Origin: Patescibacteria group bacterium
GTDB taxonomy: Bacteria > Patescibacteriota > Minisyncoccia > UBA6257 > JACRHW01
Length of the DNA stretch: 64,000 bases
Direction of reading: 5' to 3'
Assembly: GCA_028865725.1 (NCBI GenBank)
Contig: JAGWJP010000001.1
Span: 55,377-119,376, forward strand
A program made the position numbers and the translations under genes. Every line of letters begins with the position of its first letter. Position 1 is the stretch's first letter. Below the pieces are notes generated by a model. The model was not told where the DNA came from. It did no database searches and saw only the letters and a program-made list of their open reading frames with translations. Shown one piece after another: positions 21,112-63,932 of the stretch.

Positions 21112-21177
21112 ATACTATTAGGTTTTTTTCAATCAATAAACCAAACCTGACGTTGTTGGTGACAATTATAAAAAGTA

Positions 21178-21343: not shown

Positions 21344-22129
21344 ATGTCTAACATCGTAAGCCCAAACAAACTGTCAGTACACAAGCAGCACGAGGTGCTT
21401 CTCAAGCTCGAAGCAGCGGGTCTCAACGACACCCTTGCCCAGAAGCTCGTCGACTCCAAAGACAATGACCTTGCTACGAGAGTGGTACGGCTCATCGAAA
21501 ACGGAGGCATCGAGCCGAGCACGAGTCAGAAGATGGCACGTAGCATCATGGGCAAGAACTTCTTTGGTGTGGAAGAGGCAGTGAAGCACTTCGGTGTCAA
21601 TCCCACGAAGGCTCAGCTCGCTCTTCTCGCCGAGATTCCGTTTACCAAAGCGGAGCTCAAAGAAAAGAAGAACTCCCATATCCTCGTCGCCGTCTTCCCG
21701 CTCTCCATCCTCGACATTCGTGGCAAGATGACCACCAAGGTTTTCTACAACCAGGACTGGTACAACAACCAGGACTGGTACAACAACCAGGACTTCGCCA
21801 AGAATCGTGGAGAAGTGGGATGGTATCTCATTCGCAAGACTCCCGTGGAGAATTCGACGAACAAGACGTGGCAAGAGCAGCAGGCTCTTCTCTCCGACAA
21901 GGATGAGACGCCGACTGCTCGGGTCATGGTCTATGCTATCGTCGGTCATTACCTGGCAACGGGTGAGCGACTTTTTGAGAGAATCTATGTACGCTGTTCG
22001 GACCTCGGTTCGGACGGCCGCCGTGTCAGCGTCGGTTACTTCGCTGCTCGTGGGCTGGGCGTCAGCGACTGCTGGGGTGATGACCGTTTCTCCAGCGTCG
22101 GTCTCGCCTCCGCTCGGAAGTCCAACTGA
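21344..22129 (+). CDS. DGR-1 target (variable) protein. Its C-terminal ~40 aa are encoded by the variable repeat.
   Basis: 261 aa. The C-terminus ...GSDGRRVSVGYFAARGLGVSDCWGDDRFSSVGLASAR is homologous to TR1 with adenine-specific differences. Shares NQDWYN and other segments with the DGR-2 targets. Confidence 0.8.
   Translation: MSNIVSPNKLSVHKQHEVLLKLEAAGLNDTLAQKLVDSKDNDLATRVVRLIENGGIEPSTSQKMARSIMGKNFFGVEEAVKHFGVNPTKAQLALLAEIPFTKAELKEKKNSHILVAVFPLSILDIRGKMTTKVFYNQDWYNNQDWYNNQDFAKNRGEVGWYLIRKTPVENSTNKTWQEQQALLSDKDETPTARVMVYAIVGHYLATGERLFERIYVRCSDLGSDGRRVSVGYFAARGLGVSDCWGDDRFSSVGLASARKSN
21749..21794 (+). repeat. Tandem 18-bp repeat (2.5 units) inside the DGR-1 target
   Basis: aaccaggactggtacaac repeated. 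Encodes NQDWYN-NQDWYN-NQD. Confidence 0.8.
22002..22123 (+). repeat. DGR-1 variable repeat (VR1)
   Basis: ~122 bp matching TR1 (22490-22611). Every mismatch is at a TR adenine (e.g. TR AAC to VR CGC/AGC/TAC). GC-rich 3' end atcggtctcgcctccgctcgg is identical (IMH-like). Confidence 0.8.
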
Positions 22130-22489
22130 ACCTAGAACCTTGAAGCCTTGAGCTTCTTCGACCCCTTGAGTTTCCCGCAACGATTTGCGTGAGACTCTTG
22201 GGGTTTTTTCTTTTTGAATTCTTTTTTGATACAATATCCTTGTTCTGCTTTTGAAGGTGAGGCTACGGTTTCATCTCGCAGATGTCTCTTCTTTGAGACT
22301 TCGCCAGAATAGCAGTTGTCTACGGATACCGCTAGCGTGCGAATAAAGATGGAGATTGGACTTCTTGCTCATCTTTGGTGGAGATGGTTTCACAACTTGC
22401 TCCCAAATAAAATACAGAAAGGAGAGGATATAGACTCCCGTGAGTAGTAACCCTCGATTTTCAGTGACAGAGAGGAAGATGGGCAAATT

Positions 22490-22611
22490 TCTCGATTCGG
22501 ACGGCAACCGTGTCAACGTCGGTAACTTCGATGCTAATGGGCTGAACGTCAACAACTACTGGGATGATAACCGTAACTCCAACATCGGTCTCGCCTCCGC
22601 TCGGCACTCTT
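22490..22611 (+). repeat. DGR-1 template repeat (TR1), rich in AAC codons
   Basis: gattcggacggcaaccgtgtcaacgtcggtaacttcgatgctaatgggctgaacgtcaacaactactgggatgataaccgtaactccaacatcggtctcgcctccgctcgg. Followed by the hairpin aacacccc-tttc-ggggtgtt. Confidence 0.8.
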
Positions 22612-22645
22612 TTCTCTATCACAACAACACCCCTTTCGGGGTGTT

Positions 22646-24049: not shown

Positions 24050-24172
24050 TAATCAATAAACCAAATCCGCCCCCGTGTCCGAAAAGCTAGGAATATACAC
24101 TGTAGCATCATTTCTACGCTCAAAAATAGTTCTAACATCCCACACTACGGCACCCACTTTACAAAATAGCAT
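24050..24172. repeat. ~125 bp intergenic repeat, copy A (family shared with 26882-27008 and the 21127 stub)
   Basis: Begins aatcaataaaccaaatc. About 80% identical to copy B over about 120 nt. Confidence 0.5.
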
Positions 24173-25794: not shown

Positions 25795-26862
25795 ATGAAA
25801 ACGAAATCACTACTAGTATTAATAGTGATCATTACAATTGTGATCGGTGCCGGTTTTTATGTTGACACGAGATTACGTGGTATTAACCTTATGTTCAATA
25901 CCACCGTGATCCCTAGAAACGGAACTCAGTCCGATAGTTCTTCGACAGCGGAGGCGTCGCTTGCTTCAAAGATAGACCTTAAGAATTACGGCATGGCTCC
26001 CGATTTTGCTGGAATTAGTACATGGCTTAACAGCAGTCCTTTGACTATCGAAGGTTTGCGTGGAAAGGTCGTGCTCATAGATTTCTGGACATATTCTTGC
26101 ATCAACTGTATTCGCACGCTTCCTTATGTGACGAAGTGGTATGACACCTATAAAAATAATGGTTTTGTTGTTGTAGGAGTCCATACTCCAGAGTTTGCAT
26201 TTGAGCAAGACACGAATAATGTGAAAGACGCTATCCAGTATTTCAATATCCATTATCCTGTTGCTCAAGATAATCAGTACAGAACGTGGAATGCATACAG
26301 CAATCAATATTGGCCAGCCGAATATCTAATCGATAAGAATGGAAATATTGTTCACGTGCATTTTGGAGAGGGTGAGTATGACGTTACTGAAAATATAATA
26401 CGTGCATTGTTGGGTTTGAATCCAGCAACCACGACGGCTCCGAGTAATAGTTTGGACCAAGTGCAATCACCTGAAATGTACTTTGGCACTAATAGGCTTA
26501 ATAATCTGACACCTGAGCAAACCCCTTCGTTATCGTCCACAATGTATTCATTTCCTCAGAATCTTTCTTTAAATAATTTTGCTTTGGAAGGAAACTGGCA
26601 ATTTAGTCCGAAGAGTATTGCGTTAGTAAGTGGTCAAGGAAAAATAAAACTCAAATTCCATTCTGGTAAACTCTATATTGTGGCTTCCAGCGCAAATCCG
26701 AATCAACTTTCTGTTGTGATTGATGGAAAAGATCAGCTCCCCGTTGTGGTAAAAGATTCCAAATTATATACGCTCTTCGATTCAAATGATTACTCTGACC
26801 ATATCGTTGAAGTTACGATAGATCAGCCTGGCTTTAATGCATTTACGTTTACATTCGGATAG
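25795..26862 (+). CDS. Thioredoxin-fold thiol-disulfide oxidoreductase (TlpA/ResA/DipZ-like), membrane anchored
   Basis: VVLIDFWTYSCINCIRTLP CxxC motif. N-terminal TM helix. Follows CcdA with a 3-nt gap. Confidence 0.8.
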   Translation: MKTKSLLVLIVIITIVIGAGFYVDTRLRGINLMFNTTVIPRNGTQSDSSSTAEASLASKIDLKNYGMAPDFAGISTWLNSSPLTIEGLRGKVVLIDFWTYSCINCIRTLPYVTKWYDTYKNNGFVVVGVHTPEFAFEQDTNNVKDAIQYFNIHYPVAQDNQYRTWNAYSNQYWPAEYLIDKNGNIVHVHFGEGEYDVTENIIRALLGLNPATTTAPSNSLDQVQSPEMYFGTNRLNNLTPEQTPSLSSTMYSFPQNLSLNNFALEGNWQFSPKSIALVSGQGKIKLKFHSGKLYIVASSANPNQLSVVIDGKDQLPVVVKDSKLYTLFDSNDYSDHIVEVTIDQPGFNAFTFTFG

Positions 26863-26881: not shown

Positions 26882-27008
26882 TGCGAATCAATAAACCAAA
26901 TCTATCGTTGTGTCTGCAAACGTAGGAACATACACTGTAGCGTCGTTTCTCTGCTCAAACACAATTTTAACATCCTCTACGACGGCACCCAAAGATTTGA
27001 CAAATAGC
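26882..27008. repeat. ~125 bp intergenic repeat, copy B
   Basis: aatcaataaaccaaatctatcgttgtgtctgcaaacgtaggaacatacactgtagcgtcgtttct... Aligns with 24050-24172. Confidence 0.5.
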
Positions 27009-52904: not shown

Positions 52905-53054
52905 CACACTAGTGAGAGGTGTTTTGCGACCGTGTTTCTCGGTACTCCTGGGCGACCACGAGAGCCGACCCGACTGTACGGAAACACGTTTCACACACAA
53001 CAATAGCGCAGCATTTTGCCGCGCTCTTGTTGTCTCTCTCCACACATGACCCCG

Positions 53055-54395
53055 CTATACCGTTTCTTTCTGCACCAAACTGATCGTTCTGTCTTTGAGC
53101 GTAAGCCTACTTTTCAAGTTTGAAAGCAGCTCTCGCTTCTCTGTGATTGATCCGTCAGTCAAAATGTAGGCGGCATAGGCTTTCACATCAAAGATATCCG
53201 ATTCGTCATTCTTTTCCTTGGCTTTCCCCAACGCAATCCTCCTGAACTTGTTGTAACGGGTTATCTCATCATTGAATTTTTGTTTCACGCCAAGTTCGTT
53301 TAGATCGAGGGTATTCAAGATAGGGATGATTTGTTCAATGATCTCTTCTTCTTTGATGTAGCCGCACGGACAGTTTACATCTCTCCGCTTCGTACATCCG
53401 TAGTACACGTAACGGTGGGTATTCCCATTCTTCTGGTACTTCCATTTCTCGGAGGCGGTAATCCCTGATCCGCATAATCCACACGTTATCAACTTCGTGA
53501 AGGCGAACTCCTTGTCATTCTTCACCTCGCTCCGAACAAGCTGTTCCCGCGCGCGATCGTACAACTCTTTGGTAATGATAGGAGTATGAGTCCCTGTATA
53601 CCAATTCCCTGATCCTTCGGGGAATTCGAAGACGCCGTAATAGAAGGTTTTCTGGAGAATGAGGAAGATGTTTGAGAGCGAGAGATGTTTTCCATTTCCC
53701 GTTTTGAAATCTACATCGTTCCGAAGCCATTGATACAAGCGGCGGCCGCTCCATCCTTCATGCGCCACCTTCTCAAACATTTGTTTGATGATGGGTGCTC
53801 GTACCGGATCGACAATCACTTCACAGGGCTTATCCTTTCGTTTCTCATTCAGATAACCTGTTGGCGCGACAGAGGGACGAAGTCCTTGTTCGCAGCGTGT
53901 GCGCAATCCGCGTTTTACGTTCTCTGACTTATTGTCATTTTCAAGCTTGGCGGTGGAACACAGAATCATCAGCATGAATTTTTCGCTTGGGCTATTGGAG
54001 AATTTCTGTGAAAAAGTTCGGATTTCGATGAGGAGCTTCTGATCCATGAGATCGACAAGGCTTCCAAGATCGCCCGCATTTCTTGAAAGCCTATCTGGCG
54101 CCCAGGTCAGGATTCCATTAAACTTACCTCCGCGTATATCCTTGAGGAGTTCATTGAACACCTCACGCTGTCCTGTCGCCTTAGCAGAATGGCTCTCCTT
54201 TCTAATCTCTGTGATCTCCAAACCATCCCGCTCGGCAATCTTGATCATTTCTTTGATTTGAGAATCGATGGAAAGCACCTGCTGTTCCTCTGATTCCGTT
54301 GATTTTCTTGCGTACAAACAGTAGGCGACCTTTGTTGGCAGCGGTGGATTGGTTGAGGACGCCGTGCCTGCCGCCCCCTTTAGTTGATTGTTCAT
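53055..54395 (-). CDS. Large serine recombinase (second copy), adjacent to tRNA-Arg(CCT)
   Basis: YCLYARKSTESEEQQVLSIDSQ catalytic region, recombinase and zinc-ribbon domains. The ORF-track start at 54503 would read through the conserved post-VR element, so the internal Met at 54395 is preferred. Confidence 0.8.
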   Translation of the reverse strand: MNNQLKGAAGTASSTNPPLPTKVAYCLYARKSTESEEQQVLSIDSQIKEMIKIAERDGLEITEIRKESHSAKATGQREVFNELLKDIRGGKFNGILTWAPDRLSRNAGDLGSLVDLMDQKLLIEIRTFSQKFSNSPSEKFMLMILCSTAKLENDNKSENVKRGLRTRCEQGLRPSVAPTGYLNEKRKDKPCEVIVDPVRAPIIKQMFEKVAHEGWSGRRLYQWLRNDVDFKTGNGKHLSLSNIFLILQKTFYYGVFEFPEGSGNWYTGTHTPIITKELYDRAREQLVRSEVKNDKEFAFTKLITCGLCGSGITASEKWKYQKNGNTHRYVYYGCTKRRDVNCPCGYIKEEEIIEQIIPILNTLDLNELGVKQKFNDEITRYNKFRRIALGKAKEKNDESDIFDVKAYAAYILTDGSITEKRELLSNLKSRLTLKDRTISLVQKETV

Positions 54396-54454
54396 ACACC
54401 CAAAGGAATGACGCAAACCACCCTGAGCGTCAAGGGTGGGTGAAATGTGATTAT

Positions 54455-54518
54455 AAAAAATTTTTCGAACGTCCAAGGAATCAAGAAGAACCAAGACAAT
54501 CAAGCACCCAAGGCGAAA
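54455..54518 (-). repeat. Conserved ~64-nt element immediately 3' of VR-A (copy 1 of 3)
   Basis: gtttcgccttgggtgcttgattgtcttggttcttcttgattccttggacgttcgaaaaatttttt on the gene strand. Copies are near-identical after each VR stop. Confidence 0.7.
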
Positions 54519-55346
54519 CTACCGAGAGGGACAGACGCCCAGAGTGGAGTAAGTGCTGCCGCGGGAAACGCTGCGGACGCTGAGACCGCCCGAATCGAAG
54601 CTGCCAACGAGGACGAAGCCGCCGCCGGACGACTGAACACCGGTCCAGTCCCATTTATCTTCTAAGAGCGATTCTTTATTGGCGCCATAATATAAAAACG
54701 TATCGTACGCAATTTCTACAGGAGTTCTTCGCTTTACTGAAGCAGGATCAATGTTATTCTGTTTAGCCCAGTCTTTGAGAACCTCTTCTTGTTGGTCCCA
54801 GTTTTTTCCTAATGAATCGGGTAATACCGATCTTGCCACAAGACCCCAACCGAGCTTCGGAGTATCTTCGATAGCGAATTTTTCAGCGTCATACCACCCT
54901 TCACCTTTTTTGCTCACGAACATTTTTTGCTTCTTTTTCTTGGGATTGCCTAATGTGTCGCCACTTGAGAACCTCTCACGTATTTGATCGATAGTTAGCG
55001 GTTTTTCGGTTTTCCCTTCGCCAAGTCTTGATACTCTTAAGACAAGCATCATTCCCAATTTCTTTGCCTGTTCTAGTTCTTCTCGCGTAAAGGGTATTGT
55101 CTCTATTTTTTCTGATTCTTCTGGACTAAGTTCAACGCCATACGTGGCTTTAATGGCTTCGGGTCCTAGAAAGTCTTTACCAAATATTTCTTGGGCCTCG
55201 GTAAATTCAATGGATCCTTCTTTGGCCTCTGGTACAAGATTTTCTTTTTTTGCAATATCCAAAGCTTGCGCTACTTTCTTTTGTGTAGAGGTTTTGTATT
55301 TATTCGGCTCGTATTCGTCGTAGATTTTGTAGGCTTCGAAGGGCAT
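54519..55346 (-). CDS. DGR-2 target (variable) protein A. The C-terminal ~40 aa are encoded by VR-A.
   Basis: 275 aa with no signal peptide. Paralog of the genes at 57411 and 60045 (MPFEAYKIYDEYEPNKYKTSTQKKV...). C-terminus ends ...LGVCPSR. Confidence 0.8.
   Translation of the reverse strand: MPFEAYKIYDEYEPNKYKTSTQKKVAQALDIAKKENLVPEAKEGSIEFTEAQEIFGKDFLGPEAIKATYGVELSPEESEKIETIPFTREELEQAKKLGMMLVLRVSRLGEGKTEKPLTIDQIRERFSSGDTLGNPKKKKQKMFVSKKGEGWYDAEKFAIEDTPKLGWGLVARSVLPDSLGKNWDQQEEVLKDWAKQNNIDPASVKRRTPVEIAYDTFLYYGANKESLLEDKWDWTGVQSSGGGFVLVGSFDSGGLSVRSVSRGSTYSTLGVCPSR
54522..54641 (-). repeat. DGR-2 variable repeat A
   Basis: Reverse complement matches TR2 (61178-61297). Differences are almost all at TR adenines. 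One G-to-T difference. Confidence 0.75.
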
Positions 55347-55347
55347 G

Positions 55348-57333
55348 CTATAGGTCTTGTGTATATTTTAGAATAACGTTTTGGACCGCCTGTGGCAATG
55401 TTTTGATGTCAGCAATAACTTCAGCATCGGGTTTGTAGGTTTCTTTAACAGCTCCGCCTGATTCAGTCATACCAAGACCCAACACAATAACTCCTTTGCT
55501 GCGCAATTCACGAAGGATGCCCTGAACCCGAGAGGCATCCTGACTCTCTCCATCAGAAAGTACCACGACCACCTTTCTTCTCGTTTTTTCTCGCAATTCT
55601 TTCTCTTGCTCTTGCGTAATTGATTTCAGGACCGCATCCAAAGAAAGGTAATCAGGAGTGCCTCCTCCTGCTTTATGCATTTTCTTCCAAATACCAACCC
55701 TATCTTTCTCTGACAACTCCGGCGAAAGTTCTTTCAGTTCGGTATCGCCAAAGTCACCAAAGGCCCTTGTCTCTGTTCTTACCTGAAGACCAAGGACTAT
55801 ACCGCTTTCATATTCAGCTTGTTTGATTTCCTTTTGAAAATCAGCGAGCGATTCCAAGAATAGTAGTTTACTCTTCCGGTCCATTTCTAACTTACCGCCT
55901 TCGCTCATAGAACCAGAAAGATCGTTTACGAGAGACATGTCCAACATACCATAACCTTTTTGTTCTTTCTGATGTTTTTCAAGTTCACGAAATGCGTGTG
56001 GCTCTCCGCCCATCCGAGATTCGATGGAAGATTCGACGAGCGTGTCTTCGGATAATTCTTCACCTTCCGTCTCGAGCTGTGGCGAAAACTTCCAACGTTC
56101 TTTGAGGCGTCGAGAAATAATCTGTTTAAATACTTCTCGCAATTCAGCGACGAGCGGAGCAATTTCTGCATATTCCTTACGATACCCAAGAACATCCTCA
56201 GCGTTAACTCCGTGTTCACGAGCCCATTCTTCAAGAATATTCTGTTCTAGCGTTGGTGCTCCGCCTTTCTTGGCGACAATCTCTTCCATCATTTTCTTGA
56301 TCTGTTTCTCTTCTTCGTAGGTGATAGGTTCAGGGTGGCTGTCGTGGTATGTTTTGTATTGTTCTTTAAACTTCTTCTGAGCCGCTTCTTTCGCAGCACG
56401 ATCGCTGGTTTTTTTATCACCCTCGTTACCCGGCTTTTCTTCTTTTCCTTTGCCTTCTTGCGGTGTTTCCCTTTTTCTCTGCCACCATTTTCTTTTTTCC
56501 TGACCCGAACCTTGACCCTGTTGCGGCTTATCGGAAACCGTAGTGTCTGTTGGTGATACTTGCCCCTGATCTTTTTTACCATTCTTCTTTTCTTCCTCTA
56601 GGTCTTTCTCGTAAAGTTCCCGGTAGATAGGTTCAACGATCGTTCGCATAATGCGAAAACGATCTTTGGGATCAATGGTTGGTGTCGTGACAAGATCTAA
56701 AATATCTATTTTTTCAGAACCAAAACTTCGCAAGGTGTCCAACGCAGTTTGTGCATCTAGCCCAAGTTGTACTGCCTCACCGGACACCATCATCTGCCGG
56801 ATAAACCCATAGGTAAATTGGACATGGGAAGCTTTATCGGTGTAATCGGTTTGTGGAAACATCTTTTCTCGATAGAGAGTTTCACGTGTTTCCTTGAGAA
56901 ACGGAAGCTCAGCAACGATACGCCTGTTGCCTAACACGTCCTCAAAAATATTGTATAACAGATGGAGATGTTCTTTTGCACTATAACGCTTAGCCTCTTT
57001 TAAAATGAGCTCCGGATCGCGCAGGAGCTCGCCGTAGTGGGCCATGAGTTCATGTGTCGTGGCAAAGAGGGTTTCCTGAAGATTATACCCGCGTTCGATA
57101 AAGAAGTTGGGATCGTAGATAAGTTTTCGATTTTGAAAATCAAACGCCCAGCCGCCATTGCCCCGTTCTAAGGTAATGTCGCCCTTTAATCCATAGGCGG
57201 ACAAAAGCTCTGTCTCCCGATTCAAAAACTCCTCAACCGCAGGGGCATCAATTTCACGTTCTTTTTTAGGAACCTCCTGTTTTGGTGTATTACGAGGAGG
57301 TTCCATCCGATTTGTAGGGAATGATTCTTGCAT
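55348..57333 (-). CDS. von Willebrand factor A (VWA) domain protein with a long acidic/basic linker
   Basis: MIDAS LVNDLSGSMSEGG. C-terminal VWA fold ...VVVLSDGESQD...GVIVLGLGMTE. 661 aa. Confidence 0.7.
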   Translation of the reverse strand: MQESFPTNRMEPPRNTPKQEVPKKEREIDAPAVEEFLNRETELLSAYGLKGDITLERGNGGWAFDFQNRKLIYDPNFFIERGYNLQETLFATTHELMAHYGELLRDPELILKEAKRYSAKEHLHLLYNIFEDVLGNRRIVAELPFLKETRETLYREKMFPQTDYTDKASHVQFTYGFIRQMMVSGEAVQLGLDAQTALDTLRSFGSEKIDILDLVTTPTIDPKDRFRIMRTIVEPIYRELYEKDLEEEKKNGKKDQGQVSPTDTTVSDKPQQGQGSGQEKRKWWQRKRETPQEGKGKEEKPGNEGDKKTSDRAAKEAAQKKFKEQYKTYHDSHPEPITYEEEKQIKKMMEEIVAKKGGAPTLEQNILEEWAREHGVNAEDVLGYRKEYAEIAPLVAELREVFKQIISRRLKERWKFSPQLETEGEELSEDTLVESSIESRMGGEPHAFRELEKHQKEQKGYGMLDMSLVNDLSGSMSEGGKLEMDRKSKLLFLESLADFQKEIKQAEYESGIVLGLQVRTETRAFGDFGDTELKELSPELSEKDRVGIWKKMHKAGGGTPDYLSLDAVLKSITQEQEKELREKTRRKVVVVLSDGESQDASRVQGILRELRSKGVIVLGLGMTESGGAVKETYKPDAEVIADIKTLPQAVQNVILKYTQDL

Positions 57334-57344
57334 TGAGATAGTTA

Positions 57345-57410
57345 TAAAAAATTTTTTCGAACGTCCAAGGAATCAAAAAGAATCAAGAGATCCAAGCACC
57401 CAAGGGGAAA
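57345..57410 (-). repeat. Conserved post-VR element, copy 2
   Basis: Same sequence family as 54455-54518. Confidence 0.7.
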
Positions 57411-58229
57411 CTACCGAGAGGGACAGACGCCCAGATCGGAGCTCGTGCCGTCGCGGGTATCGCTGTAGACGTTGAGACCGTCCGAATCGAAGCGGCCAAC
57501 GAAGACGAAGCTGCCGCCGGACGACTGAACGGCAGACCAGTCATAAGAACTTTCGAGGAGAGATTCTTTGTTCGCACCATAATACAAAAGAGTATCGTAG
57601 ATGATCTCAACGGGAGTCCTACGTTTTACTGAAGCAGGATCAATATTGTTTTGTTTGGCCCAACTCTTGAGAACCTCTTCTTGCTGATCCCAGTTTTTAC
57701 TGCGTGATTCCTGTAAGACTTCTTTCATAACTAAACTCCACCCGAGTGAAGGCGTAACCTGTGTAGCAAACGATTCATTATTATACCAATCCTGATCGTA
57801 AAATATCTTTGTTTTTTTCTTGGTGGGATTACCCAACTTGTCTCCCGCCTTAAAAACTCCCCGCACATTGTTAATGCTAAAAGGTTTTGCAGTTTTATCC
57901 TTACCGATTCTTGGTATGCGTAAGACGAGCATCATGCCAAGTTGTTTTGCCTGTTCTAATTCTTCTCGAGTAAATGGGATGTTTTCGATACGTCCAAGTT
58001 CATCAGGAGAGAGTTCAATCCCGAACGTTGCTTTGACAGCTTCAGGACCCAAAAAATCCTTACCTAATAGTTCTTGGGCCTCATTGAACTCAATAGTTAC
58101 TTCCTTTGCCTCAGGCACAAGATTTTCTTTCTTGGCAATATCTAAAGCCTGAGCCACCTTCTTTTGCGTGGAAGTTTTGTACTTGTTGGGCTCGTATTCG
58201 TCGTAAATTTTGTAGGCTTCAAAAGGCAT
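57411..58229 (-). CDS. DGR-2 target protein B
   Basis: 272 aa. About 75-80% identical to target A outside the VR. C-terminus ...SFVFVGRFDSDGLNVYSDTRDGTSSDLGVCPSR. Confidence 0.8.
   Translation of the reverse strand: MPFEAYKIYDEYEPNKYKTSTQKKVAQALDIAKKENLVPEAKEVTIEFNEAQELLGKDFLGPEAVKATFGIELSPDELGRIENIPFTREELEQAKQLGMMLVLRIPRIGKDKTAKPFSINNVRGVFKAGDKLGNPTKKKTKIFYDQDWYNNESFATQVTPSLGWSLVMKEVLQESRSKNWDQQEEVLKSWAKQNNIDPASVKRRTPVEIIYDTLLYYGANKESLLESSYDWSAVQSSGGSFVFVGRFDSDGLNVYSDTRDGTSSDLGVCPSR
57414..57533 (-). repeat. DGR-2 variable repeat B
   Basis: Reverse complement aligns to TR2. All 12 or so mismatches fall on TR adenines. Confidence 0.8.
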
Positions 58230-58258
58230 GATTCGATACGCGTATCAACGAATGGTCA

Positions 58259-59938
58259 TTATTCTTTACCCTGCCACTGACGGACTGTTTTAGAAGATAA
58301 TCCTTGGATATCAAATTCTTCTGGATTAGTGTCCTTGAAAAATTTATTCGCCATAAATACTTTAATCATATTTTCACGATCCTTGGCGGCTCGACCGCTG
58401 ATTTCTGCCTTTCTGAAAAATTCTCGGAGCACAACATTTTCTAATGGTTCAGCAAAACCAGAGGCCTTCCAGGCTTTCATGATTTCAATTTGATCTTTTA
58501 AGGTAATAACGAGTTCTTTAAAGGCAAGTTTATCGCTACGCGCTAATGAATCTTCACCACCTTCTCGCATGCTCAAAGTAAAATCTTCCTGAATCTTACG
58601 GCACGCGCCGACAAAACGCTTTAACGCATCGAGTTTTTGTGGTGCTTCTTGTTCGTCCCACGCAATGGCGCCATTTCGATCTGCAAGTACACCCGCAAGA
58701 ATAGTAAGCGTCTCAGGAGCAATATATTCACCTTCTTTGTTCTTTTTGCCGAGATCTAGATAATGAATTTCTTTCGCCCCCGCACCGCCGATAAAACGGC
58801 GAAGCGTGGCAACATCAAGTTCGTAGCGTTGCTTATAGCGTTCTGATTTAAGATTAGCGGTGGCAAAAATAACAAATCCGGGGGCAACCTTGATTGATTC
58901 TCCTGTTGAAGGATGCTTCCATGAACTGCCCACACGTAACTGAAAAATTTCGTTCAAAATGCCTTGAAATTCATGAGGCATAAGGTTCATTTCATCCAAA
59001 ATAACGGGACGCCCTTCCTTCATGCTTTTCACAAGTTCTGAATACAGAAAATCAGTAGCGCCATCTTTGAGGGTAACACGTCCCATGATTTGAGATTCTT
59101 TGATTTGTTCGGAAATGGAGATTGGCGCAACTTCGTAACCCAGAAATCTATGAGAAATGTATTTAGCAAGCTGAGTCTTGCCAGAACCTGTTTCGCCTTG
59201 AAACAAAATAGGCGCGCCGCGCAATAAATCAGGTAAGACGTCTTGAATAAGCTTGGTGCGCGATTCTGTCTCGGCAAAACTATAACGCTCTAAATCTTGT
59301 TGCGTGCGCCGAACCTCTCTCCGGCGTAGCATATCAATTGATGCCGGATCTAATTCAAAAGCAGTTACATTGTTTTGTAGTTCCTCTCTCCGATTTGTGA
59401 GATCGGTAAGCTTGGTGCGTTCAATCGGGCCCGGTGCGCGTCCTATTTTTTCATAGAGCACGCGAAGTTTTTGTTCACTATTCGTGACAGCGCTAAGTTC
59501 TTTTTGGAGATGTTCATAGGTTAGAACGTTGGCTAACGTATCCTTCATGCCTTCAAAGCGCTCTTTATACGTCTCCATTACTTTGGAGTTACTGCCCAGT
59601 TCTTGAATACGCGCATCATATTCAGCAAGAACATTCTCGGAAAATTCTGCCATTTCAGGATCAATTTTAAGTGCGTCAAATTGAGCCGCAACCGCATCAT
59701 CGCCTTGAGCCTTCAATTCTTCTCGTTCGGTTTTTGTAAGACCGCCCCACGATTCACGGACGTGCTTTGATGCTTCGACTCTTGCGGCGGAGAGGTCCAT
59801 AAGCTCTTGGACTCGTGTTTCAAGTTGCTCAGGAGAAAGTTTTTGCTTCTCTTTTGTACTATCAACACCTTTTTCCTCAATAACGCGCTCCGGAGTGGTA
59901 GGTAGATTAGGCATTGATGGAAATTGTTCTTTGGGCAT
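58259..59938 (-). CDS. MoxR-like AAA+ ATPase (AAA_5 / dynein-related subfamily)
   Basis: Walker A LFQGETGSGKTQLAKY. Walker B VILDEMNLMPHEFQGILNEIFQ. ...FVIFATANL. 559 aa with a coiled-coil N-terminus. Confidence 0.8.
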   Translation of the reverse strand: MPKEQFPSMPNLPTTPERVIEEKGVDSTKEKQKLSPEQLETRVQELMDLSAARVEASKHVRESWGGLTKTEREELKAQGDDAVAAQFDALKIDPEMAEFSENVLAEYDARIQELGSNSKVMETYKERFEGMKDTLANVLTYEHLQKELSAVTNSEQKLRVLYEKIGRAPGPIERTKLTDLTNRREELQNNVTAFELDPASIDMLRRREVRRTQQDLERYSFAETESRTKLIQDVLPDLLRGAPILFQGETGSGKTQLAKYISHRFLGYEVAPISISEQIKESQIMGRVTLKDGATDFLYSELVKSMKEGRPVILDEMNLMPHEFQGILNEIFQLRVGSSWKHPSTGESIKVAPGFVIFATANLKSERYKQRYELDVATLRRFIGGAGAKEIHYLDLGKKNKEGEYIAPETLTILAGVLADRNGAIAWDEQEAPQKLDALKRFVGACRKIQEDFTLSMREGGEDSLARSDKLAFKELVITLKDQIEIMKAWKASGFAEPLENVVLREFFRKAEISGRAAKDRENMIKVFMANKFFKDTNPEEFDIQGLSSKTVRQWQGKE

Positions 59939-59980
59939 ATTGTAAGTGTTATACGGTTATGAATTGATTGTACCAGTTTC

Positions 59981-60044
59981 AAAAATTTTTTCGAACGTCC
60001 AAGGAATCAAGAAGAACCAAGACAATCAAGCACCCAAGGGGAAA
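59981..60044 (-). repeat. Conserved post-VR element, copy 3
   Basis: Same sequence family as 54455-54518. Confidence 0.7.
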
Positions 60045-60857
60045 CTACCGAGAGGGACAGACGCCCAGACTGGAGCTCGTGCCGTCGCGGGTATCGTCGC
60101 TGACGTCGAGACCGCCCGAATCGAAGCTGCCAACGTCGACGAAGCTGCCGTCGGACGACTGAACGGCAGACCAATCCCAGGTAGATTCTAATAATGATTC
60201 TTTGTTTGCACCATAATAGAGGAGAGTGTCATAGATGATTTCTACGGGGGTTCTGCGTTTAATAGTATTCGGATCTATATTATTGTCTTTTGCCCACTTT
60301 TTAAGAACCTCCTCTTGTTGATCCCAATTTTTATCCAATGATTCCTGGAGCACGTCTTTTGTTACCAGGCTCCATTTGAGTTGCGGTGTCGGTTTTGTTG
60401 CAAATTCTTGGTCGTTATACCAATCCTGTGATTTCCAAAACAAATTCGTTTTCTTCTTTGCGGGATCTCCCAATGCATCATCGGACCCGAATTGTTCTCG
60501 CAATTGTTTGATGGTAAGCAGGTTTCCATCCTTATCATGCGATACCCGCAACACAAGCATCATCTTAAGATGTTTTGCTTGTTCAAGCTCTTCTCGAGTA
60601 AACGGGATGTTTTCAATCTCCTGCAATTCTTCAGGGGTAAGTTCGACGCCATATGTCGTTTTAACCGATTCGGGTCCCAGAAAATCTTTGCCGAATAGTT
60701 CTCTGGCTTCATTGAATTCGATGTTTGTTTCTTTAGCTTCAGGTATGAGATTCTCTTTTTTGGCAATGTCTAAAGCCTGCTCAACCTTTTTCTGAGTAGA
60801 AGTCTTGTATTTATTCGGTTCGTATTCGTCGTAAATTTTGTAAGCTTCAAAAGGCAT
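60045..60857 (-). CDS. DGR-2 target protein C
   Basis: 270-aa paralog. C-terminus ...GSFVDVGSFDSGGLDVSDDTRDGTSSSLGVCPSR. Confidence 0.8.
   Translation of the reverse strand: MPFEAYKIYDEYEPNKYKTSTQKKVEQALDIAKKENLIPEAKETNIEFNEARELFGKDFLGPESVKTTYGVELTPEELQEIENIPFTREELEQAKHLKMMLVLRVSHDKDGNLLTIKQLREQFGSDDALGDPAKKKTNLFWKSQDWYNDQEFATKPTPQLKWSLVTKDVLQESLDKNWDQQEEVLKKWAKDNNIDPNTIKRRTPVEIIYDTLLYYGANKESLLESTWDWSAVQSSDGSFVDVGSFDSGGLDVSDDTRDGTSSSLGVCPSR
60048..60167 (-). repeat. DGR-2 variable repeat C
   Basis: Reverse complement versus TR2: all differences are A to G or A to other at TR adenines. Confidence 0.8.
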
Positions 60858-61177
60858 AGCTATTTCTTTAACTATACAGAATATGAAACATTTTTGCCAA
60901 CTTTCGCAATCATAAAACGTATGCCATACTAATGGCGAGCTTTGTTACTAGAGATTAGGCTGCATAGGTTTAATCTTACGGATCTCCTTTTTGCATATTC
61001 CGCCGGAGTTTCTGTGGCATATCGGTTATAGAAAGCGCGCGGTGGCAAAACGTAAGAACAACGAAACTACGTGTTTTGTTTCAATGTGGATGCCTTGTGC
61101 ACGGGCTGCCACTACGTAAAATTCAGGAGATATTTCCTTGTTGAAATTATCCGGTGATGGGGAAGGAACAAAACACA

Positions 61178-61297
61178 CAGGTTCAGTCGTCCGACGGCAA
61201 CTTCGTCAACGTTGGCAACTTCGATTCGGACGGTCTCAACGTCAACAACGATACCCGCGACAACACGAACTCCAATCTGGGCGTCTGTCCCTCTCGG
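61178..61297 (+). repeat. DGR-2 template repeat (TR2), AAC-rich
   Basis: gttcagtcgtccgacggcaacttcgtcaacgttggcaacttcgattcggacggtctcaacgtcaacaacgatacccgcgacaacacgaactccaatctgggcgtctgtccctctcgg. In-frame translation is ...NFVNVGNFDSDGLNVNNDTRDNTNSNLGVCPSR. Confidence 0.8.
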
Positions 61298-61314
61298 TAG
61301 TTTTGTTAATCTGG

Positions 61315-61345
61315 ATGAAGAGGCCTTCTTAGAAGGCCTCTTCAT
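61315..61345. terminator. Perfect 14-bp stem-loop between TR2 and the Avd 3' end
   Basis: atgaagaggccttc-tta-gaaggcctcttcat. Confidence 0.5.
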
Positions 61346-61719
61346 TACTCTCGCGTTGATCGGATCCATCCGCCAAGCATTTTGCCAATTTCCTGGATAT
61401 GGTTTTGGCAAACAACGTATCGCTTATCGCTCAGCGCATCAACGTCGTTTGTTAATCGGATAAAAACTTTTAACATATCAAGCTTGCCGCTTGCAGATTC
61501 TAGTATGGGTAATTTGCGATCTTTTGTGATTTGGGCGGCCAACATAATATCCTTCAAGATTTGTAAAATATATTCTTCGCAATATTGGCCTAACGTATAG
61601 CGATCTTTCTTTGGGAAATCGAGCTCGAAAATGTAGAACTCTTTGAAAAAATCATACGTTTTTTTGAAGATAGGGATATCTAAGCTAAATTTTCCATCAT
61701 AGCCATGAGAGTTTTCCAT
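61345..61719 (-). CDS. avd: Avd-like accessory variability determinant of DGR-2. The start is uncertain.
   Basis: The C-terminal ~120 aa of ORF 61345-61932 align with the Avd of DGR-1 (DIPIFKKTYDFF...IGKMLGGWI). Met at 61719 overlaps the divergent RT start by 15 nt. An alternative start upstream cannot be excluded. Confidence 0.6.
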   Translation of the reverse strand: MENSHGYDGKFSLDIPIFKKTYDFFKEFYIFELDFPKKDRYTLGQYCEEYILQILKDIMLAAQITKDRKLPILESASGKLDMLKVFIRLTNDVDALSDKRYVVCQNHIQEIGKMLGGWIRSTRE

Positions 61720-62757
61720 AATATTTTTGATCAAATTATTAATATAGAGAATTTGGTTACTTCGTGGAGAGAATTTCGGATTGGCAAAAAACATCGCCGC
61801 GATACACTTATTTTTGAATATCGGTTGGAGGATAATCTCTGGTATCTTCGGAGGGTGCTTGAGGATAGAACGTACAAGCATTCCGGATACTTCTCTTTCT
61901 TTGTACAAGACCCGAAGGTCCGGCATATCCATAAAGCATCGGTTCGGGATCGAGTGTTACACCACGCGATTGTGAAACATCTTAACCCAATTTTCGAACC
62001 AACATTTATTTATGATTCCTATTCTTGCAGAATTAATAAAGGCACTCATCGAGGAATCAAAGCTTTTACTAAACATGCTCGGCAAGTCAGCAAAAACTGG
62101 ACAAGCACATGCTGGGTACTGAAATGCGACATCAGAAAATTTTTTGCCACCATCGATCACAATGTTTTGCTCGATATACTCTTTAGACATATTGCCGATC
62201 CTGACACGCGATGGTTACTACGCGAGGTTGTTTCAAGTTTTCGTTCGGAGTTTACGGTTGATCCGGAAAACCCCAAAGGAGTGCCTATCGGCAATCTTAC
62301 CTCGCAACTTTTTGCCAACGTGTACCTGAACGAGCTCGACCAATTTGTAAAGCATCAGTTGAAAGAAAAACACTACATTCGTTATGCCGATGATTTTGTG
62401 ATACTACACCCCCAAAGAGATCACTGTTTAGATATTGTGAAACGTATCACTACATTCCTTAAAGAATTTCTCAAGCTTGAATTGCATCCCAATAAAGTTA
62501 CTGTTAGAAAATTTAGCCAAGGCGTAGATTTTTTGGGTTACGTTTCTTTTCCTCATTTTGTGATACCGAGAAATAAAACCAGGAACAGAGTATTCAATAA
62601 AATACATGACAATATTTTGCTCTATAAACGTGGCCAATGGACGCTCGAGTCACTAAATCAAAGCATTCATTCATATCTTGGAATTTTATCTCACAGTAAT
62701 TCATTTGATCTCCAACAGGAGCTTGAAAATCAGATATTTTTTTGGCTGACAGAATAA
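61705..62757 (+). CDS. DGR-2 reverse transcriptase
   Basis: 350 aa. GVPIGNLTSQLFANVYLNELD (I/LGxxxSQ). YIRYADDFVIL. About 55% identical to the RT at 23001-24047. Confidence 0.85.
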   Translation: MRVFHNIFDQIINIENLVTSWREFRIGKKHRRDTLIFEYRLEDNLWYLRRVLEDRTYKHSGYFSFFVQDPKVRHIHKASVRDRVLHHAIVKHLNPIFEPTFIYDSYSCRINKGTHRGIKAFTKHARQVSKNWTSTCWVLKCDIRKFFATIDHNVLLDILFRHIADPDTRWLLREVVSSFRSEFTVDPENPKGVPIGNLTSQLFANVYLNELDQFVKHQLKEKHYIRYADDFVILHPQRDHCLDIVKRITTFLKEFLKLELHPNKVTVRKFSQGVDFLGYVSFPHFVIPRNKTRNRVFNKIHDNILLYKRGQWTLESLNQSIHSYLGILSHSNSFDLQQELENQIFFWLTE

Positions 62758-62819
62758 GCAATCATCTCTACATTATCCTTCGGATTTCCTGGTACATTGT
62801 TGACTAATACGCATGTAGC

Positions 62820-63932
62820 CTATAGCTCCGGAAAGATTGCTCTCACCTTCGCTTCGTGTTCCTCAATGGTTTTCTGATCTGGCTCAACGGTAGCGATATC
62901 AATCGTCACATCCTCCTCGAACGGCATCGTCTCTTTCTCATGAAAGAGGCGGTTCTTTGTGGTATTCGATTCCTCGTCTATGTTTGTCGCAGTTCGGATC
63001 GCCTTGTTGAGCTGCTCCATGTTTTCCCGCAAGGCAGCGAGTCTCTCGGAGACATGCTCCGCCATATCTGTCTCGTAGATGGGGGAAAGCTTTTTGAACA
63101 CAGTCTCGAAACCAAGGAGAATGGCATAGCCATTGATGAGCAGTTGTCGCCGTTCGGCAAATATTTTCGCTATTTCCTCATCTTTGAATCTGAGAAACAA
63201 TGTCCCGTTTTTTCTGAATTCTTCAAACAATGTCTGTGCATAGAGAAGGTTTGAGAGCATCGTCACACTCATACCATATCGACTGAAGGCGCCTGGTTCT
63301 CGGTTTCCTGCAAGGCTGCAAATCAAGAGCTCTTGGTCGAGATGCTCGTCCGTGTGATCGGGGTCATTTTCAGCGTACACGAGGCCAAGGTTCGGGTCGT
63401 AAGTGTCGACCCGCTTTTTGAAATCCTTGACGAATGCATATGCTCCGCCAAAGGCATAGAGACTTGTTCCGGTGATCACTGTATTGTTAAAGGTTTCGAA
63501 TGCTCTTTTTTCATCAAGTTCGCCTTTGAGGCTCGGCTCGATATTCAGGTTTTCGAAAATCATGGCAGCCGAGGCGAACTCACTATCGTAGAGACCCTTG
63601 CTCCAAAGTTTCTCTTTTCTGGTTTCTTCCTCAGTACGCTCCCTCAAGGCAAGCTCTCCAGAGGCGACATGCTTGCGTAACGTTTTTCTTGCTTTCACCT
63701 TGCTTTGGAACCACCGTTTCAAAAGTTCAGCATCATCGCTTGCCGCAAGCGGTGTGTATTCTTCGATGAGCCCATCGTCAAGCCAGCGTCGGCATGCCTC
63801 GCGAAGCATGGCCTTGATGGTCATAGTATGCTCTTTGGCATAGTGCTGCATCGCCTTCGTCACGGCATCGTGGATGTCATCGTCCTCCTCACGCGCTTCT
63901 TGATCCTTGGCTAGCGGATCGCCCGTAATCAC
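62820..63932 (-). CDS. Hypothetical acidic protein
   Basis: 370-aa ORF (GTG start). No recognisable motif. Confidence 0.4.
   Translation of the reverse strand: MITGDPLAKDQEAREEDDDIHDAVTKAMQHYAKEHTMTIKAMLREACRRWLDDGLIEEYTPLAASDDAELLKRWFQSKVKARKTLRKHVASGELALRERTEEETRKEKLWSKGLYDSEFASAAMIFENLNIEPSLKGELDEKRAFETFNNTVITGTSLYAFGGAYAFVKDFKKRVDTYDPNLGLVYAENDPDHTDEHLDQELLICSLAGNREPGAFSRYGMSVTMLSNLLYAQTLFEEFRKNGTLFLRFKDEEIAKIFAERRQLLINGYAILLGFETVFKKLSPIYETDMAEHVSERLAALRENMEQLNKAIRTATNIDEESNTTKNRLFHEKETMPFEEDVTIDIATVEPDQKTIEEHEAKVRAIFPEL

What the first reader, a model, noticed from the sequence alone, without database searches (positions are those of the whole stretch)
54455..60044. Conserved ~64-nt element immediately after each DGR-2 variable-repeat stop codon, absent after the template
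Each DGR-2 variable repeat is followed by the near-identical sequence gtttcgccttgggtgcttgattgtcttggttcttcttgattccttggacgttcgaaaaatttttt. It contains CTTGG and CTTGATT repeats and an A6T6/TTCGAA palindrome.

The template repeat is followed instead by a different 14-bp hairpin.

The DGR-1 variable repeat is followed by a related CTTGA-repeat stretch, ccttgaagccttgagcttcttcgaccccttgag.

This may be the target-side cis element (IMH-flanking structure) that marks VR as recipient. It may also act as a terminator.
Basis: seen in the sequence. Interest (0 to 1): 0.5.

Follow-up and report, generated by a model that had tools for sequence, protein, structure and literature searches.

The report
Periodic recipient-marker repeats after DGR variable regions
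The conserved 64-base stretch after each variable repeat is a row of five short CTTG(G/A) units spaced about 8 bases apart; the same kind of row follows variable repeats, never template repeats, of related retroelements in many other genomes, so it most likely marks which copy receives the mutated DNA.

Summary

The element is unstructured. It consists of five YTTGR units spaced 8-9-10-8 nt, followed by TTCGA(5-6)T(5-6).

In the 64-kb window, such CTTGR clusters occur only after the four variable repeats. Across about 460 kb of related Patescibacteria loci, strict arrays lie almost only after VR stop codons. None follows a template repeat. This holds for targets down to 26% identity and for RT-sampled DGRs with other targets.

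TRs are followed instead by a long hairpin. By position it matches the Avd-binding stem-loop of the Bordetella phage DGR RNA.

An analogous array (four CTG units, period 7-8) sits between VR and the classic GC hairpin in most of 63 phage DGRs sampled.

I read the element as the VR-specific recipient determinant, the positional equivalent of the 21-bp IMH segment. What reads it is unknown. Its 3' end overlaps promoter-like boxes for the next gene. It is not a terminator.

I found no description of this periodicity in the searchable literature. Function is inferred, not shown.

The parts
54455..54518 (-). Element copy a: five YTTGR units (54472-54511, spacing 8-9-10-8), then TTCGAAAAATTTTTT. TATAAT follows directly at 54450-54455.
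57347..57410 (-). Element copy b: units at 57364-57403, then TTCGAAAAAATTTTTT. TATAAC lies at 57341-57346, and the ATG of the VWA gene is 7 nt further on.
59981..60044 (-). Element copy c: units at 59998-60037, then TTCGAAAAAATTTTT. It overlaps a TCGAAA-16-TGgTACAAT promoter-like site at 59994-59967.
54519..54638 (-). Variable repeat a, including the TAG stop, at the 3' end of target 54519..55346.
57411..57530 (-). Variable repeat b, at the 3' end of target 57411..58229.
60045..60164 (-). Variable repeat c, at the 3' end of target 60045..60857. All 11 mismatches to the TR are at TR adenines.
61181..61303 (+). DGR-2 template repeat. Homology with the VRs ends at ...CTCGGTAGTTT.
61315..61345 (+). 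14-bp perfect hairpin with a 3-nt loop, directly after the TR. By position it corresponds to the Avd-binding stem-loop (Sp 3-33) of the BPP-1 DGR RNA.
61345..61932 (-). Mechanical ORF whose C-terminal ~105 residues are a bAvd-like accessory protein. It is convergent with the TR.
61705..62757 (+). DGR-2 reverse transcriptase (RVT_1).
22139..22172 (+). DGR-1 version of the array (CTTGA, CTTGA, degenerate TTCGA, CTTGA), starting 10 nt after the target stop. A terminator-like hairpin (22161-22204) plus T-run follows.
22004..22129 (+). DGR-1 variable repeat, at the end of target 21344..22129.
22491..22609 (+). DGR-1 template repeat. It is followed by the hairpin AACACCCC-TTTC-GGGGTGTT (22626-22645) and has no array.

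Best explanation
The element is the VR-specific half of the DGR target site: the signal that distinguishes the recipient (VR) from the donor (TR).

In this DGR, VR and TR are identical through the GC-rich end and the stop codon (...GGGCGTCTGTCCCTCTCGGTAGTTT). Directionality therefore has to be encoded further downstream.

What lies downstream of the VR is a single-strand-friendly, unstructured array of five YTTGR units at about 8-nt spacing, then TTCGA(5-6)T(5-6). Downstream of the TR lies a long stem-loop instead.

Proposed mechanism (inferred): after the RT-Avd complex has made the adenine-mutagenised cDNA, the array is read sequence-specifically on the sense strand, which is the strand the cDNA pairs with. 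This docks the 5' end of the cDNA at the VR/array boundary, so only copies carrying the array are rewritten.

The array occupies the place taken in Bordetella phage BPP-1 by the 21-bp IMH segment, between the shared GC-rich tract and the GC hairpin. Many relatives keep such a hairpin after the array. This lineage has lost it and retains only the A/T palindrome.

The last unit, the TTCGA tract and the adjacent TATAAT-like boxes probably double as the promoter of the next gene.

Shown here: anatomy, VR-specificity, periodicity, lack of structure, deep conservation.
For: 1. Specificity in the window. Clusters of at least 4 CTTGR in 60 nt occur only at the four VR ends, in 64 kb on both strands.

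2. Conservation with homologous targets. In 34 loci with targets 26-80% identical, arrays follow almost every VR stop codon. The spacing is conserved: 8-9-10-8 in the close clade and 8-7-7-8 in a distant TTTGA clade. Additional paralogous VRs in the same loci carry arrays too.

3. Independence from the target family. Loci sampled through the RT (52-56% identical; Doudna-, Magasanik-, Woyke-, Kerfeld-, Specht- and Parcubacteria, with other target proteins) show the array after every VR found.

4. Contrast with TRs. 56 VR flanks carry on average 3.57 TTGR in 55 nt; 24 TR flanks carry 0.54. TTG-TTG distances peak at 7-8 nt and multiples of that. An unbiased 3-mer scan ranks TTG first: 95 pairs at 7-9 nt, against 4.5 at control distances and 3.7 in TR flanks.

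5. Background. Across 64 + 207 + 193 kb on both strands, strict arrays occur only on the target strand at VR ends, with one exception.

6. Selection on the units. In an alignment of 17 flanks from the close clade the units are near-invariant, the spacers vary, and conservation collapses after the A/T tract.

7. Not tied to one downstream context. The same element precedes promoter-like boxes, terminator hairpins (L001a, L008a) or GC hairpins in different loci.

8. Generality. 39 of 63 phage-type VR flanks have at least 3 CTG units at 6-10 nt spacing (34 have exactly 4) before the GATA/GACA-loop hairpin; 0 of 63 TR flanks do. Cultured phages VHML, VP585, BalMu-1, Saumur and Lagaffe show the same.

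9. Fit with the literature:
- A 21-bp VR-specific IMH segment sets directionality in BPP-1 (PMC3240598).
- When IMH equals IMH*, recognition 'would have to extend downstream' (PMC5758913).
- GC hairpins are found in only 34% of DGRs.
Against: - There is no experiment. Everything rests on conservation and position.
- The flanks are phylogenetically related, so the p-values are inflated.
- A conserved 3' flank could instead serve expression of the target or of the next gene. In all three window copies a -10-like box follows within 0-10 nt, and unit 5 or TTCGAA sits at -35 distance.
- Two VR flanks lack the array (L010, L011), as do several phage and archaeal-virus DGRs (ANMV-1, crAss LMMB, Arawn, vir525). 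It is therefore not universal.
- Unit number varies between 2 and 5 among lineages, which argues against a simple one-unit-per-Avd-protomer reading.
- The published model for BPP-1 IMH is base pairing with the Sp RNA primer (PMC5703328). I found no complementarity between arrays and the 400 nt downstream of the TR above the controls.
- The loose 4-mer pattern alone is not diagnostic outside this context. A metagenome scan returned only simple tandem repeats.
- The main paper on CPR DGRs (Paul et al. 2017) could not be read.
Confidence: 0.6

Rival explanations
1. The element is a promoter/UP-element region for the gene downstream of each target (recombinase, VWA protein, AAA ATPase). It is conserved because these genes travel with the targets.
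For: - TATAAT (54450-54455) and TATAAC (57341-57346) follow the A/T tract directly.
- TGgTACAAT follows about 10 nt beyond the tract in copy c.
- Unit 5 (TTGGAC) or TTCGAA lies 15-17 nt upstream of these boxes.
- The consensus scan flags copy c.
- Orthologous loci keep CTGGTAAAAT or TATAAC at the same places.
- The VWA ATG lies 7 nt after TATAAC, which fits a leaderless transcript.
Against: - This accounts for at most the last unit and the A/T tract, not units 1-4.
- The same array is followed by terminator hairpins and no gene start in L001a and L008a, by GC hairpins in many lineages, and by the TR cassette in DGR-1.
- Arrays follow VRs regardless of which gene comes next.
- No other promoter in the window carries such an array.
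Confidence: 0.12
2. The array is a 3'-UTR or transcription-level signal of the target gene. It would be a periodic binding site on the mRNA for an RNA-binding regulator or termination factor, unrelated to retrohoming.
For: - Periods of 7-9 nt with short cores are typical of sites for oligomeric proteins that bind single-stranded nucleic acid (own knowledge: TRAP, HutP).
- The array is unstructured and always lies on the sense strand just after the stop codon.
- In the TTTGA clade the stop codon is itself the first unit.
Against: - It occurs only after DGR-diversified genes in about 460 kb of Patescibacteria sequence.
- It follows unrelated target families that share only the DGR.
- An analogous array occurs in phage DGRs of unrelated hosts.
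- No Rfam family matches.
- No regulator gene is conserved alongside it.
Confidence: 0.1
3. The array acts by base pairing with the RNA still attached to the cDNA (the Sp-derived primer), as proposed for the BPP-1 IMH. The repeated units would offer several registers for a short RNA segment.
For: - Published model: PMC5703328.
- In BPP-1 the Sp sequence AGGTGGTCA is the exact complement of IMH TGACCACCT (read).
- In the window, CCAAGCA (61373-61379, about 70 nt after the TR and just past the hairpin) is complementary to TGCTTGG of unit 2 in copy b.
- In phage DGRs a conserved CCAGA within the first 25 nt of Sp complements TCTGG units in 17 of 62.
Against: - The longest complement between the 400 nt after the TR and the array averages 7.35 nt (CPR) and 6.65 nt (phage). 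Reversed, complemented and same-strand controls give 6.3-7.9. Cognate pairs barely exceed non-cognate ones.
- The window matches are 6-7 nt and are not adjacent to the cDNA start.
- The priming site in these DGRs is unknown.
Confidence: 0.1
4. The array is read by the host replisome, for example as a cluster of primase start sites or a pause site on the lagging-strand template. This would create an Okazaki-fragment boundary at the VR end that the cDNA can exploit.
For: - DGR editing is favoured when the sense strand is the lagging-strand template (PMC12875486).
- E. coli DnaG starts at 5'-CTG on the template (own knowledge).
- Both target sets in the window are co-oriented with the replication direction inferred from GC skew and gene orientation.
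Against: - The core follows the DGR lineage, not the host. A Bacillus phage uses CTG. Vibrio phages mix TTG and CTG in one array. The two DGRs of this one genome share the core but differ in spacing.
- Nothing is known about primase specificity in Patescibacteria.
Confidence: 0.06
5. The element is a neutral leftover of tandem gene duplication, or is homogenised by gene conversion among the three paralogues, and has no function.
For: The three targets are tandem paralogues. Copies a and c are nearly identical in the element.
Against: - The units are conserved across genomes whose target proteins are only 26-35% identical, and across other target families. Spacers and the sequence beyond the A/T tract are not conserved.
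- The coding sequence next to the element is less conserved than the element itself.
Confidence: 0.02

Closest known systems
IMH (initiation of mutagenic homing) of the Bordetella phage BPP-1 DGR: (GC)14 plus a 21-bp VR-specific segment
   Same: - Same position: directly after the GC-rich end of the VR and before the hairpin, where one exists.
- Present at the VR and different at the TR.
- Marks the 3' limit of adenine mutagenesis.
- In BPP-1 this segment sets the direction of transfer.
- The BPP-1 IMH itself contains TGA, CTGA and TTGA spaced 8 and 7 nt. Four of the five IMH/IMH* mismatches fall in the first two.
   Different: - Here the segment is about 45-60 nt, lies outside the coding region, and has no residual similarity to the TR flank.
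- It has an overt 5-unit periodicity that has not been described for IMH.
- The BPP-1 IMH bases are explained in the literature by pairing with the Sp RNA primer. I could not show that for the arrays.
GC-rich hairpin/cruciform downstream of VR (Guo et al. 2011, PMC3240598)
   Same: It is a target-side, VR-specific accessory element. In many relatives a hairpin of this type (CCGCC-GAA/GCA-GGCGG, or GCGATAGC-type loops in phages) directly follows the array.
   Different: - The three DGR-2 copies have no inverted repeat beyond the A5-6T5-6/TTCGAA palindromes, and fold no better than shuffles.
- The array is made of direct repeats, not inverted ones.
Avd-binding stem-loop of the DGR RNA (Sp 3-33 in BPP-1; bioRxiv 10.1101/2023.10.23.563531)
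   Same: This comparison concerns the TR side. A long stem capped by a small loop follows the TR immediately in the window (14 bp) and in 20 of 22 related TR flanks.
   Different: - Binding to Avd was not tested.
- Here avd is encoded on the opposite strand, convergent with the TR, so the hairpin could also be a bidirectional terminator.
Periodic direct-repeat binding sites for oligomeric proteins (TRAP and HutP sites on RNA; plasmid iterons)
   Same: Short conserved cores separated by variable spacers of constant length, and no secondary structure (own knowledge of these systems).
   Different: No binding protein has been identified. The spacing of 7-10 nt is off the DNA helical repeat, and the unit number varies from 2 to 5 between DGR lineages.
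Sigma-70-type promoter with an A/T-rich upstream tract
   Same: TTGGAC or TTCGAA at -35 distance from TATAAT, TATAAC or TGgTACAAT.
   Different: It covers only the 3' third of the element. The array also occurs without any downstream gene start.

Membership tests
DGR IMH (recipient determinant) | Lies at the 3' end of the VR, after the last adenine-mutagenised position and a GC-rich tract shared with the TR | tested here: met
   The alignment of three VRs and the TR shows GGGCGTCTGTCCCTCTCGGTAGTTT shared by all, with the element starting right after it. All VR/TR mismatches lie at TR adenines upstream of this point.
DGR IMH (recipient determinant) | The sequence differs between VR and TR, so donor and recipient can be told apart | tested here: met
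   The TR flank has no array and carries a hairpin instead. Across relatives, 56 VR flanks average 3.57 TTGR and 24 TR flanks 0.54.
DGR IMH (recipient determinant) | IMH and IMH* form an imperfect repeat (21 bp with 5 mismatches in BPP-1) | tested here: not met
   There is no alignable similarity between VR and TR flanks beyond TAGTTT. This is the case foreseen in PMC5758913, where recognition must extend downstream.
DGR IMH (recipient determinant) | Required for homing, and sufficient together with the hairpin to make a heterologous gene a recipient | not testable with these tools
   Needs a retrohoming assay.
DGR hairpin/cruciform | GC-rich inverted repeat with a 7-10 bp stem and a 4-nt GRNA loop, 4-34 bp after the VR | tested here: not met
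   DNA folding of the three copies gives -3.8 to -6.0 kcal/mol, z +0.40 to +0.97. Relatives do have such a hairpin, but after the array, about 40-45 nt from the VR.
Intrinsic terminator | Stable GC-rich stem directly followed by a T-run | tested here: not met
   No terminator-like site was called at the three copies, and they have no stem. Only the DGR-1 flank has one (22161-22204 plus T-run, z = -2.4).
Sigma-70-type promoter | -35 and -10 hexamers 16-18 nt apart upstream of a gene start | tested here: inconclusive
   Copy c scores 9/12 with an extended -10. Copies a and b have TATAAT/TATAAC but a weak -35 (TTGGAC) at 15-16 nt. The array also precedes terminators in L001a and L008a.
Known RNA families (Rfam 15) | Match to a covariance model | tested here: not met
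   There were 0 matches at E <= 1 in 53000-63000 on both strands.
Coding extension by stop-codon read-through | Open frame kept across copies, with substitutions biased to synonymous sites | tested here: not met
   The frame after TAG is open through all three copies. However, the differences are non-synonymous, relatives carry indels that are not multiples of 3, and the DGR-1 flank has an in-frame stop.
Avd-binding stem-loop of DGR RNA (applies to the TR hairpin) | Long stem with a small loop immediately 3' of the TR, contacted by the Avd pentamer | tested here: inconclusive
   Position and shape fit in the window and in 20 of 22 relatives. Contact with Avd cannot be tested here. The bAvd gene is present.

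The most novel reading that the evidence does not exclude
A periodic array of 3-5 YTG(R) units spaced 7-9 nt apart is the general sequence code of the DGR recipient signal, and its periodicity had not been noticed. The units are YTTGR in Patescibacteria DGRs, WWCTGR in a large clade of phage DGRs, and possibly a 3-unit remnant inside the classical BPP-1 IMH.

On this reading the array is read directly by the RT-Avd ribonucleoprotein, or by a replisome component, to dock the cDNA at the VR. The array, rather than the GC hairpin, would be the primary determinant of which copy is rewritten.
Probability: 0.35. Interest if true: 0.85.

Novelty: new variant of a known kind. Interest (0 to 1): 0.62.

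Why it matters
How the mutagenised cDNA finds and enters the variable repeat is the main open step of DGR biology. It is described as unknown in 2017, 2025 and 2026 papers.

The only defined target-side elements come from one phage: the IMH and a GC hairpin. That hairpin is missing from two thirds of DGRs.

A short, countable, lineage-specific repeat code found at VRs but not at TRs has several uses:
- It gives a directly testable handle through unit deletion, transplantation and binding assays.
- It could improve computational calling of true DGR targets and their orientation.
- It could supply portable recipient tags for DGR-based directed evolution in hosts where the BPP-1 elements work poorly.

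Tried and rejected
1. **Structure.** DNA folding of both strands of the element gave no structure. RNA folding of 31 related arrays averaged -5.3 kcal/mol, against -19.7 for TR flanks.

2. **Rfam.** No hit.

3. **Terminator.** None was called at the three copies.

4. **Read-through coding.** Rejected; see the membership test.

5. **Metagenome scan.** I spent the single scan on the loose pattern TTGR-N4-TTGR-N5-TTGR-N6-TTGR-N4-TTGR. All 135 matches were microsatellite-like or coding tandem repeats or chance, with no DGR among them. The scan was wasted, and it shows that the 4-mer pattern alone is not diagnostic.

6. **Pairing of the array with RNA downstream of the TR.** No enrichment over reversed, complemented and same-strand controls, or over non-cognate pairs.

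7. **Host primase idea.** The core does not track the host.

8. **One unit per Avd protomer.** The unit number varies from 2 to 5 across lineages.

9. **Literature.** Searches for a prior description of direct repeats after VRs found nothing. Paul et al. 2017 is not held.
Full report
**Observation**

None is expected by chance. A third copy at 57347-57410 differs by about six substitutions and one indel.

Each copy begins directly after the TAG of one of three tandem paralogous genes: 54519..55346, 57411..58229 and 60045..60857, all on the minus strand. The last ~120 nt of each gene are a variable repeat. All 11 mismatches between VR c and the template repeat at 61181-61300 (plus strand) lie at TR adenines.

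Downstream of the TR lie a bAvd-like gene on the opposite strand and an RVT_1 reverse transcriptase.

The window comes from a Patescibacteria MAG, in which the three targets are annotated as hypothetical proteins KGI50_00650, 00660 and 00670.

A second, divergent DGR sits at 21.3-24.0 kb. Its RT is 47% identical to the DGR-2 RT (sequence).

**Anatomy**

VR and TR are identical through ...GGGCGTCTGTCCCTCTCGGTAGTTT and then diverge completely.

After the VR come five YTTGR units with start-to-start spacing 8-9-10-8. These are followed by TTCGA(5-6)T(5-6).

The element folds no better than shuffled sequence on either strand, with z from +0.2 to +1.0. It matches no Rfam family.

After the TR comes a perfect 14-bp hairpin (-17.2 kcal/mol, z = -3.4).

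The DGR-1 VR is followed by CTTGA, CTTGA, TTCGA, CTTGA and then a terminator-like hairpin.

In the whole window, on both strands, clusters of at least four CTTGR in 60 nt occur only at these four VR ends.

**Relatives found through the target protein**

The target has more than 120 homologues, all from Patescibacteria-type metagenomes. A scan of one genome per GTDB species returned 34 loci with targets 26-80% identical.

Almost every one shows a periodic array directly after the stop codon:
- Close relatives (Yanofskybacteria and allies) keep CTTGG/CTTGA units, the 8-9-10-8 spacing and the TTCGAAAAATTTTT tract.
- Distant ones (about 30% identity) have TTTGA units spaced 8-7-7-8, in which the stop codon TGA is the first unit. 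These are often followed by a GC hairpin and a CGAAnTTTT tract.

A chain detector (TTGR, spacing 7-11, at least 4 units) run over the window and all 34 loci on both strands found arrays only on the target strand. All but one lay at a VR end, including second and third paralogous VRs in the same locus.

TRs identified by adenine-only mismatches had no array.

**Relatives found through the RT**

To separate the element from the target family, I took ten RTs that are 52-56% identical to the window RT, from other Patescibacteria lineages, and fetched their contigs.

Eight of the ten loci gave TR/VR pairs. Their targets belong to other families, including AAA_5 fusions, and some sit in prophage-like contexts.

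Every VR was followed by a YTTGR array. One example is L161: CCTTGAGGTCTTGAATTCTTGGGTCTTTTGATCCCTTGAA, then CCGCC-GCA-GGCGG, then TCGAAAAAATT. No TR was followed by one.

In these 193 kb, strict arrays occurred only at VR ends. A looser detector added one unexplained T-rich site.

**Pooled counts**

- 56 VR flanks carry 3.57 TTGR per 55 nt; 24 TR flanks carry 0.54.
- TTG-TTG distances peak at 7-8 nt and at multiples of that.
- An unbiased scan of all 3-mers ranks TTG first for recurrence at 7-9 nt: 95 pairs, against 4.5 at control distances and 3.7 in TR flanks.
- The flanks are related by descent, so the formal p-values overstate independence.
- In an alignment of 17 close-clade flanks the units are near-invariant, the spacers vary, and conservation ends at the A/T tract.

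**The TR side**

Twenty of 22 related TR flanks have an 8-20 bp hairpin immediately after the TR, with mean MFE -19.7 kcal/mol. The array regions average -5.3.

In the cryo-EM structure of the BPP-1 RNP, the stem-loop immediately after the TR (Sp 3-33) is the Avd-binding element and is contacted by all five protomers.

Because avd is convergent here, the hairpin could also act as a terminator.

**Beyond Patescibacteria**

As an outgroup I fetched 80 viral contigs with RTs 34-50% identical to the window RT. The two closest have CTTGR arrays.

The rest lack TTGR arrays but show an analogous feature: four WWCTGR units, period 7-8, between the end of TR/VR homology and the classic GC hairpin with a GATA or GACA loop.
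- 39 of 63 unique VR flanks have at least 3 such units, and 34 have exactly 4.
- 0 of 63 TR flanks have at least 3.
- CTG is by far the top periodic 3-mer: 128 pairs at 7-8 nt, against 2.5 at control distances and 0 in TR flanks.

Cultured phages were then checked:
- VHML and VP585 (Vibrio), BalMu-1 (Bacillus), Saumur and Lagaffe show the array.
- Bise, Magia and QDWS have two units.
- ANMV-1, crAss LMMB, Arawn and vir525 have none.

The array is therefore common but not universal. Its core follows the DGR lineage rather than the host.

**Comparison with BPP-1**

In BPP-1 the hairpin follows the stop codon directly, and there is no separate array.

The known determinant there is the IMH: a (GC)14 tract shared with the TR, plus 21 bp with five mismatches to the TR that set the direction of transfer.

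Read from the sequence, that segment is G-TGA-CCACC-TGA-TTCT-TGA-G, with units 8 and 7 nt apart. Four of the five mismatches disrupt the first two units. This may be a short version of the array.

However, Naorem et al. explain the same bases by pairing with the RNA primer linked to the cDNA. Indeed Sp AGGTGGTCA is the exact complement of IMH TGACCACCT.

I tested that idea for the arrays. The longest complement between the 400 nt after each TR and its array is no greater than for reversed, complemented or same-strand controls, and barely greater than for non-cognate pairs. In the window only 6-7 nt matches exist, for example CCAAGCA at 61373-61379. Pairing is therefore neither supported nor excluded.

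**Promoter overlap**

TATAAT (54450-54455), TATAAC (57341-57346) and TGgTACAAT (to 59967) follow the A/T tract. Unit 5 or TTCGAA lies at -35 distance, and orthologous loci keep these boxes. The 3' third of the element probably doubles as a promoter for the next gene.

This cannot explain units 1-4. It also cannot explain the same array in front of terminators (L001a, L008a) or GC hairpins.

**Conclusion**

The element is best read as the VR-specific recipient determinant of this DGR. It is the positional equivalent of the 21-bp IMH segment, here built from five periodic units, in a lineage that has lost the following GC hairpin.

The comparative evidence for a VR-linked function is strong.

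The papers I could search describe only the IMH and the inverted repeat. They note that hairpins are absent from most DGRs, and that when IMH equals IMH* recognition must extend downstream. I found no description of the periodic array.

Noticed in passing
L166-L245 (IMG/VR viral contigs), e.g. L170 5257-5310, L184 5134-5190: Most phage-type DGRs sampled have four WWCTGR units at 7-8 nt spacing between the VR end and the GC hairpin with a GATA/GACA loop. TR flanks have none. This looks like a general feature of DGR target sites.
   Followed up: partly
L165 (BPP-1) 3438-3470 and 2885-2920, minus strand: The classical 21-bp IMH reads TGA-N5-TGA-N4-TGA. Four of its five mismatches to IMH* hit the first two units. 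The same bases are the exact complement of Sp AGGTGGTCA, which ends at the priming A56.
   Followed up: partly
window 61315-61345; 22626-22645; TR flanks of L003-L164: A strong 8-20 bp hairpin immediately follows nearly every TR of this DGR clade. By position it matches the Avd-binding stem-loop of the BPP-1 DGR RNA. Here avd is convergent, so it may also serve as a bidirectional terminator.
   Followed up: partly
window 15800-61000: Long ORFs run on the plus strand from about 15.8 to 40 kb and on the minus strand from 41 to 61 kb. GC skew changes sign near 50 kb, which resembles a replication terminus. Both the DGR-1 target (plus strand) and the DGR-2 targets (minus strand) would then be co-directional with replication, the orientation reported to favour DGR editing.
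   Followed up: no
window 53055-60857: The three targets alternate with an AAA_5 ATPase (58259..59938) and a VWA-domain protein (55348..57333). The cluster ends at a large serine recombinase (ATG near 54395). The same target-ATPase-target-VWA order seems to be kept in Yanofskybacteria loci.
   Followed up: partly
window 53055-54503 minus strand: The mechanical ORF for the recombinase starts at a TTG inside the element, in frame with the target's stop codon. The frame stays open across the element in all three copies. Substitution and indel patterns argue against translation.
   Followed up: yes
window 24051-24156, 26886-26991, and about 21130-21150: An unrelated ~106-nt repeat (AATCAATAAACCAAATC...ACACTGTAGC...ACGGCACCCA, 78-82% identical) lies just after the DGR-1 RT gene and again after ORF 25795..26862. 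Its first ~15 nt recur upstream of the DGR-1 target.
   Followed up: no
L155 16659-16692: This is the only loose YTTG array (5 units, spacing 8-7-7-7) found away from a VR in the RT-sampled loci. It is a T-rich stretch just upstream of a CCA-adding enzyme gene, and is unexplained.
   Followed up: no
L010 3955-4010; L011 3847-3900: Two homologous targets (Azambacteria, Uhrbacteria) lack the array. For L010 only 14 of 20 TR/VR mismatches are at TR adenines. For L011 no TR was found in the locus. These may be decaying DGRs.
   Followed up: no
VR flanks of L014, L022, L026, L028, L161, L168 and the window copies: A third conserved module, CGAA(A)nTTTT, follows the array or the hairpin in many lineages. 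In the window it is the A5-6T5-6 palindrome. Its role is unknown; it could be a bend, an easily melted site, or a promoter -35/UP element.
   Followed up: no
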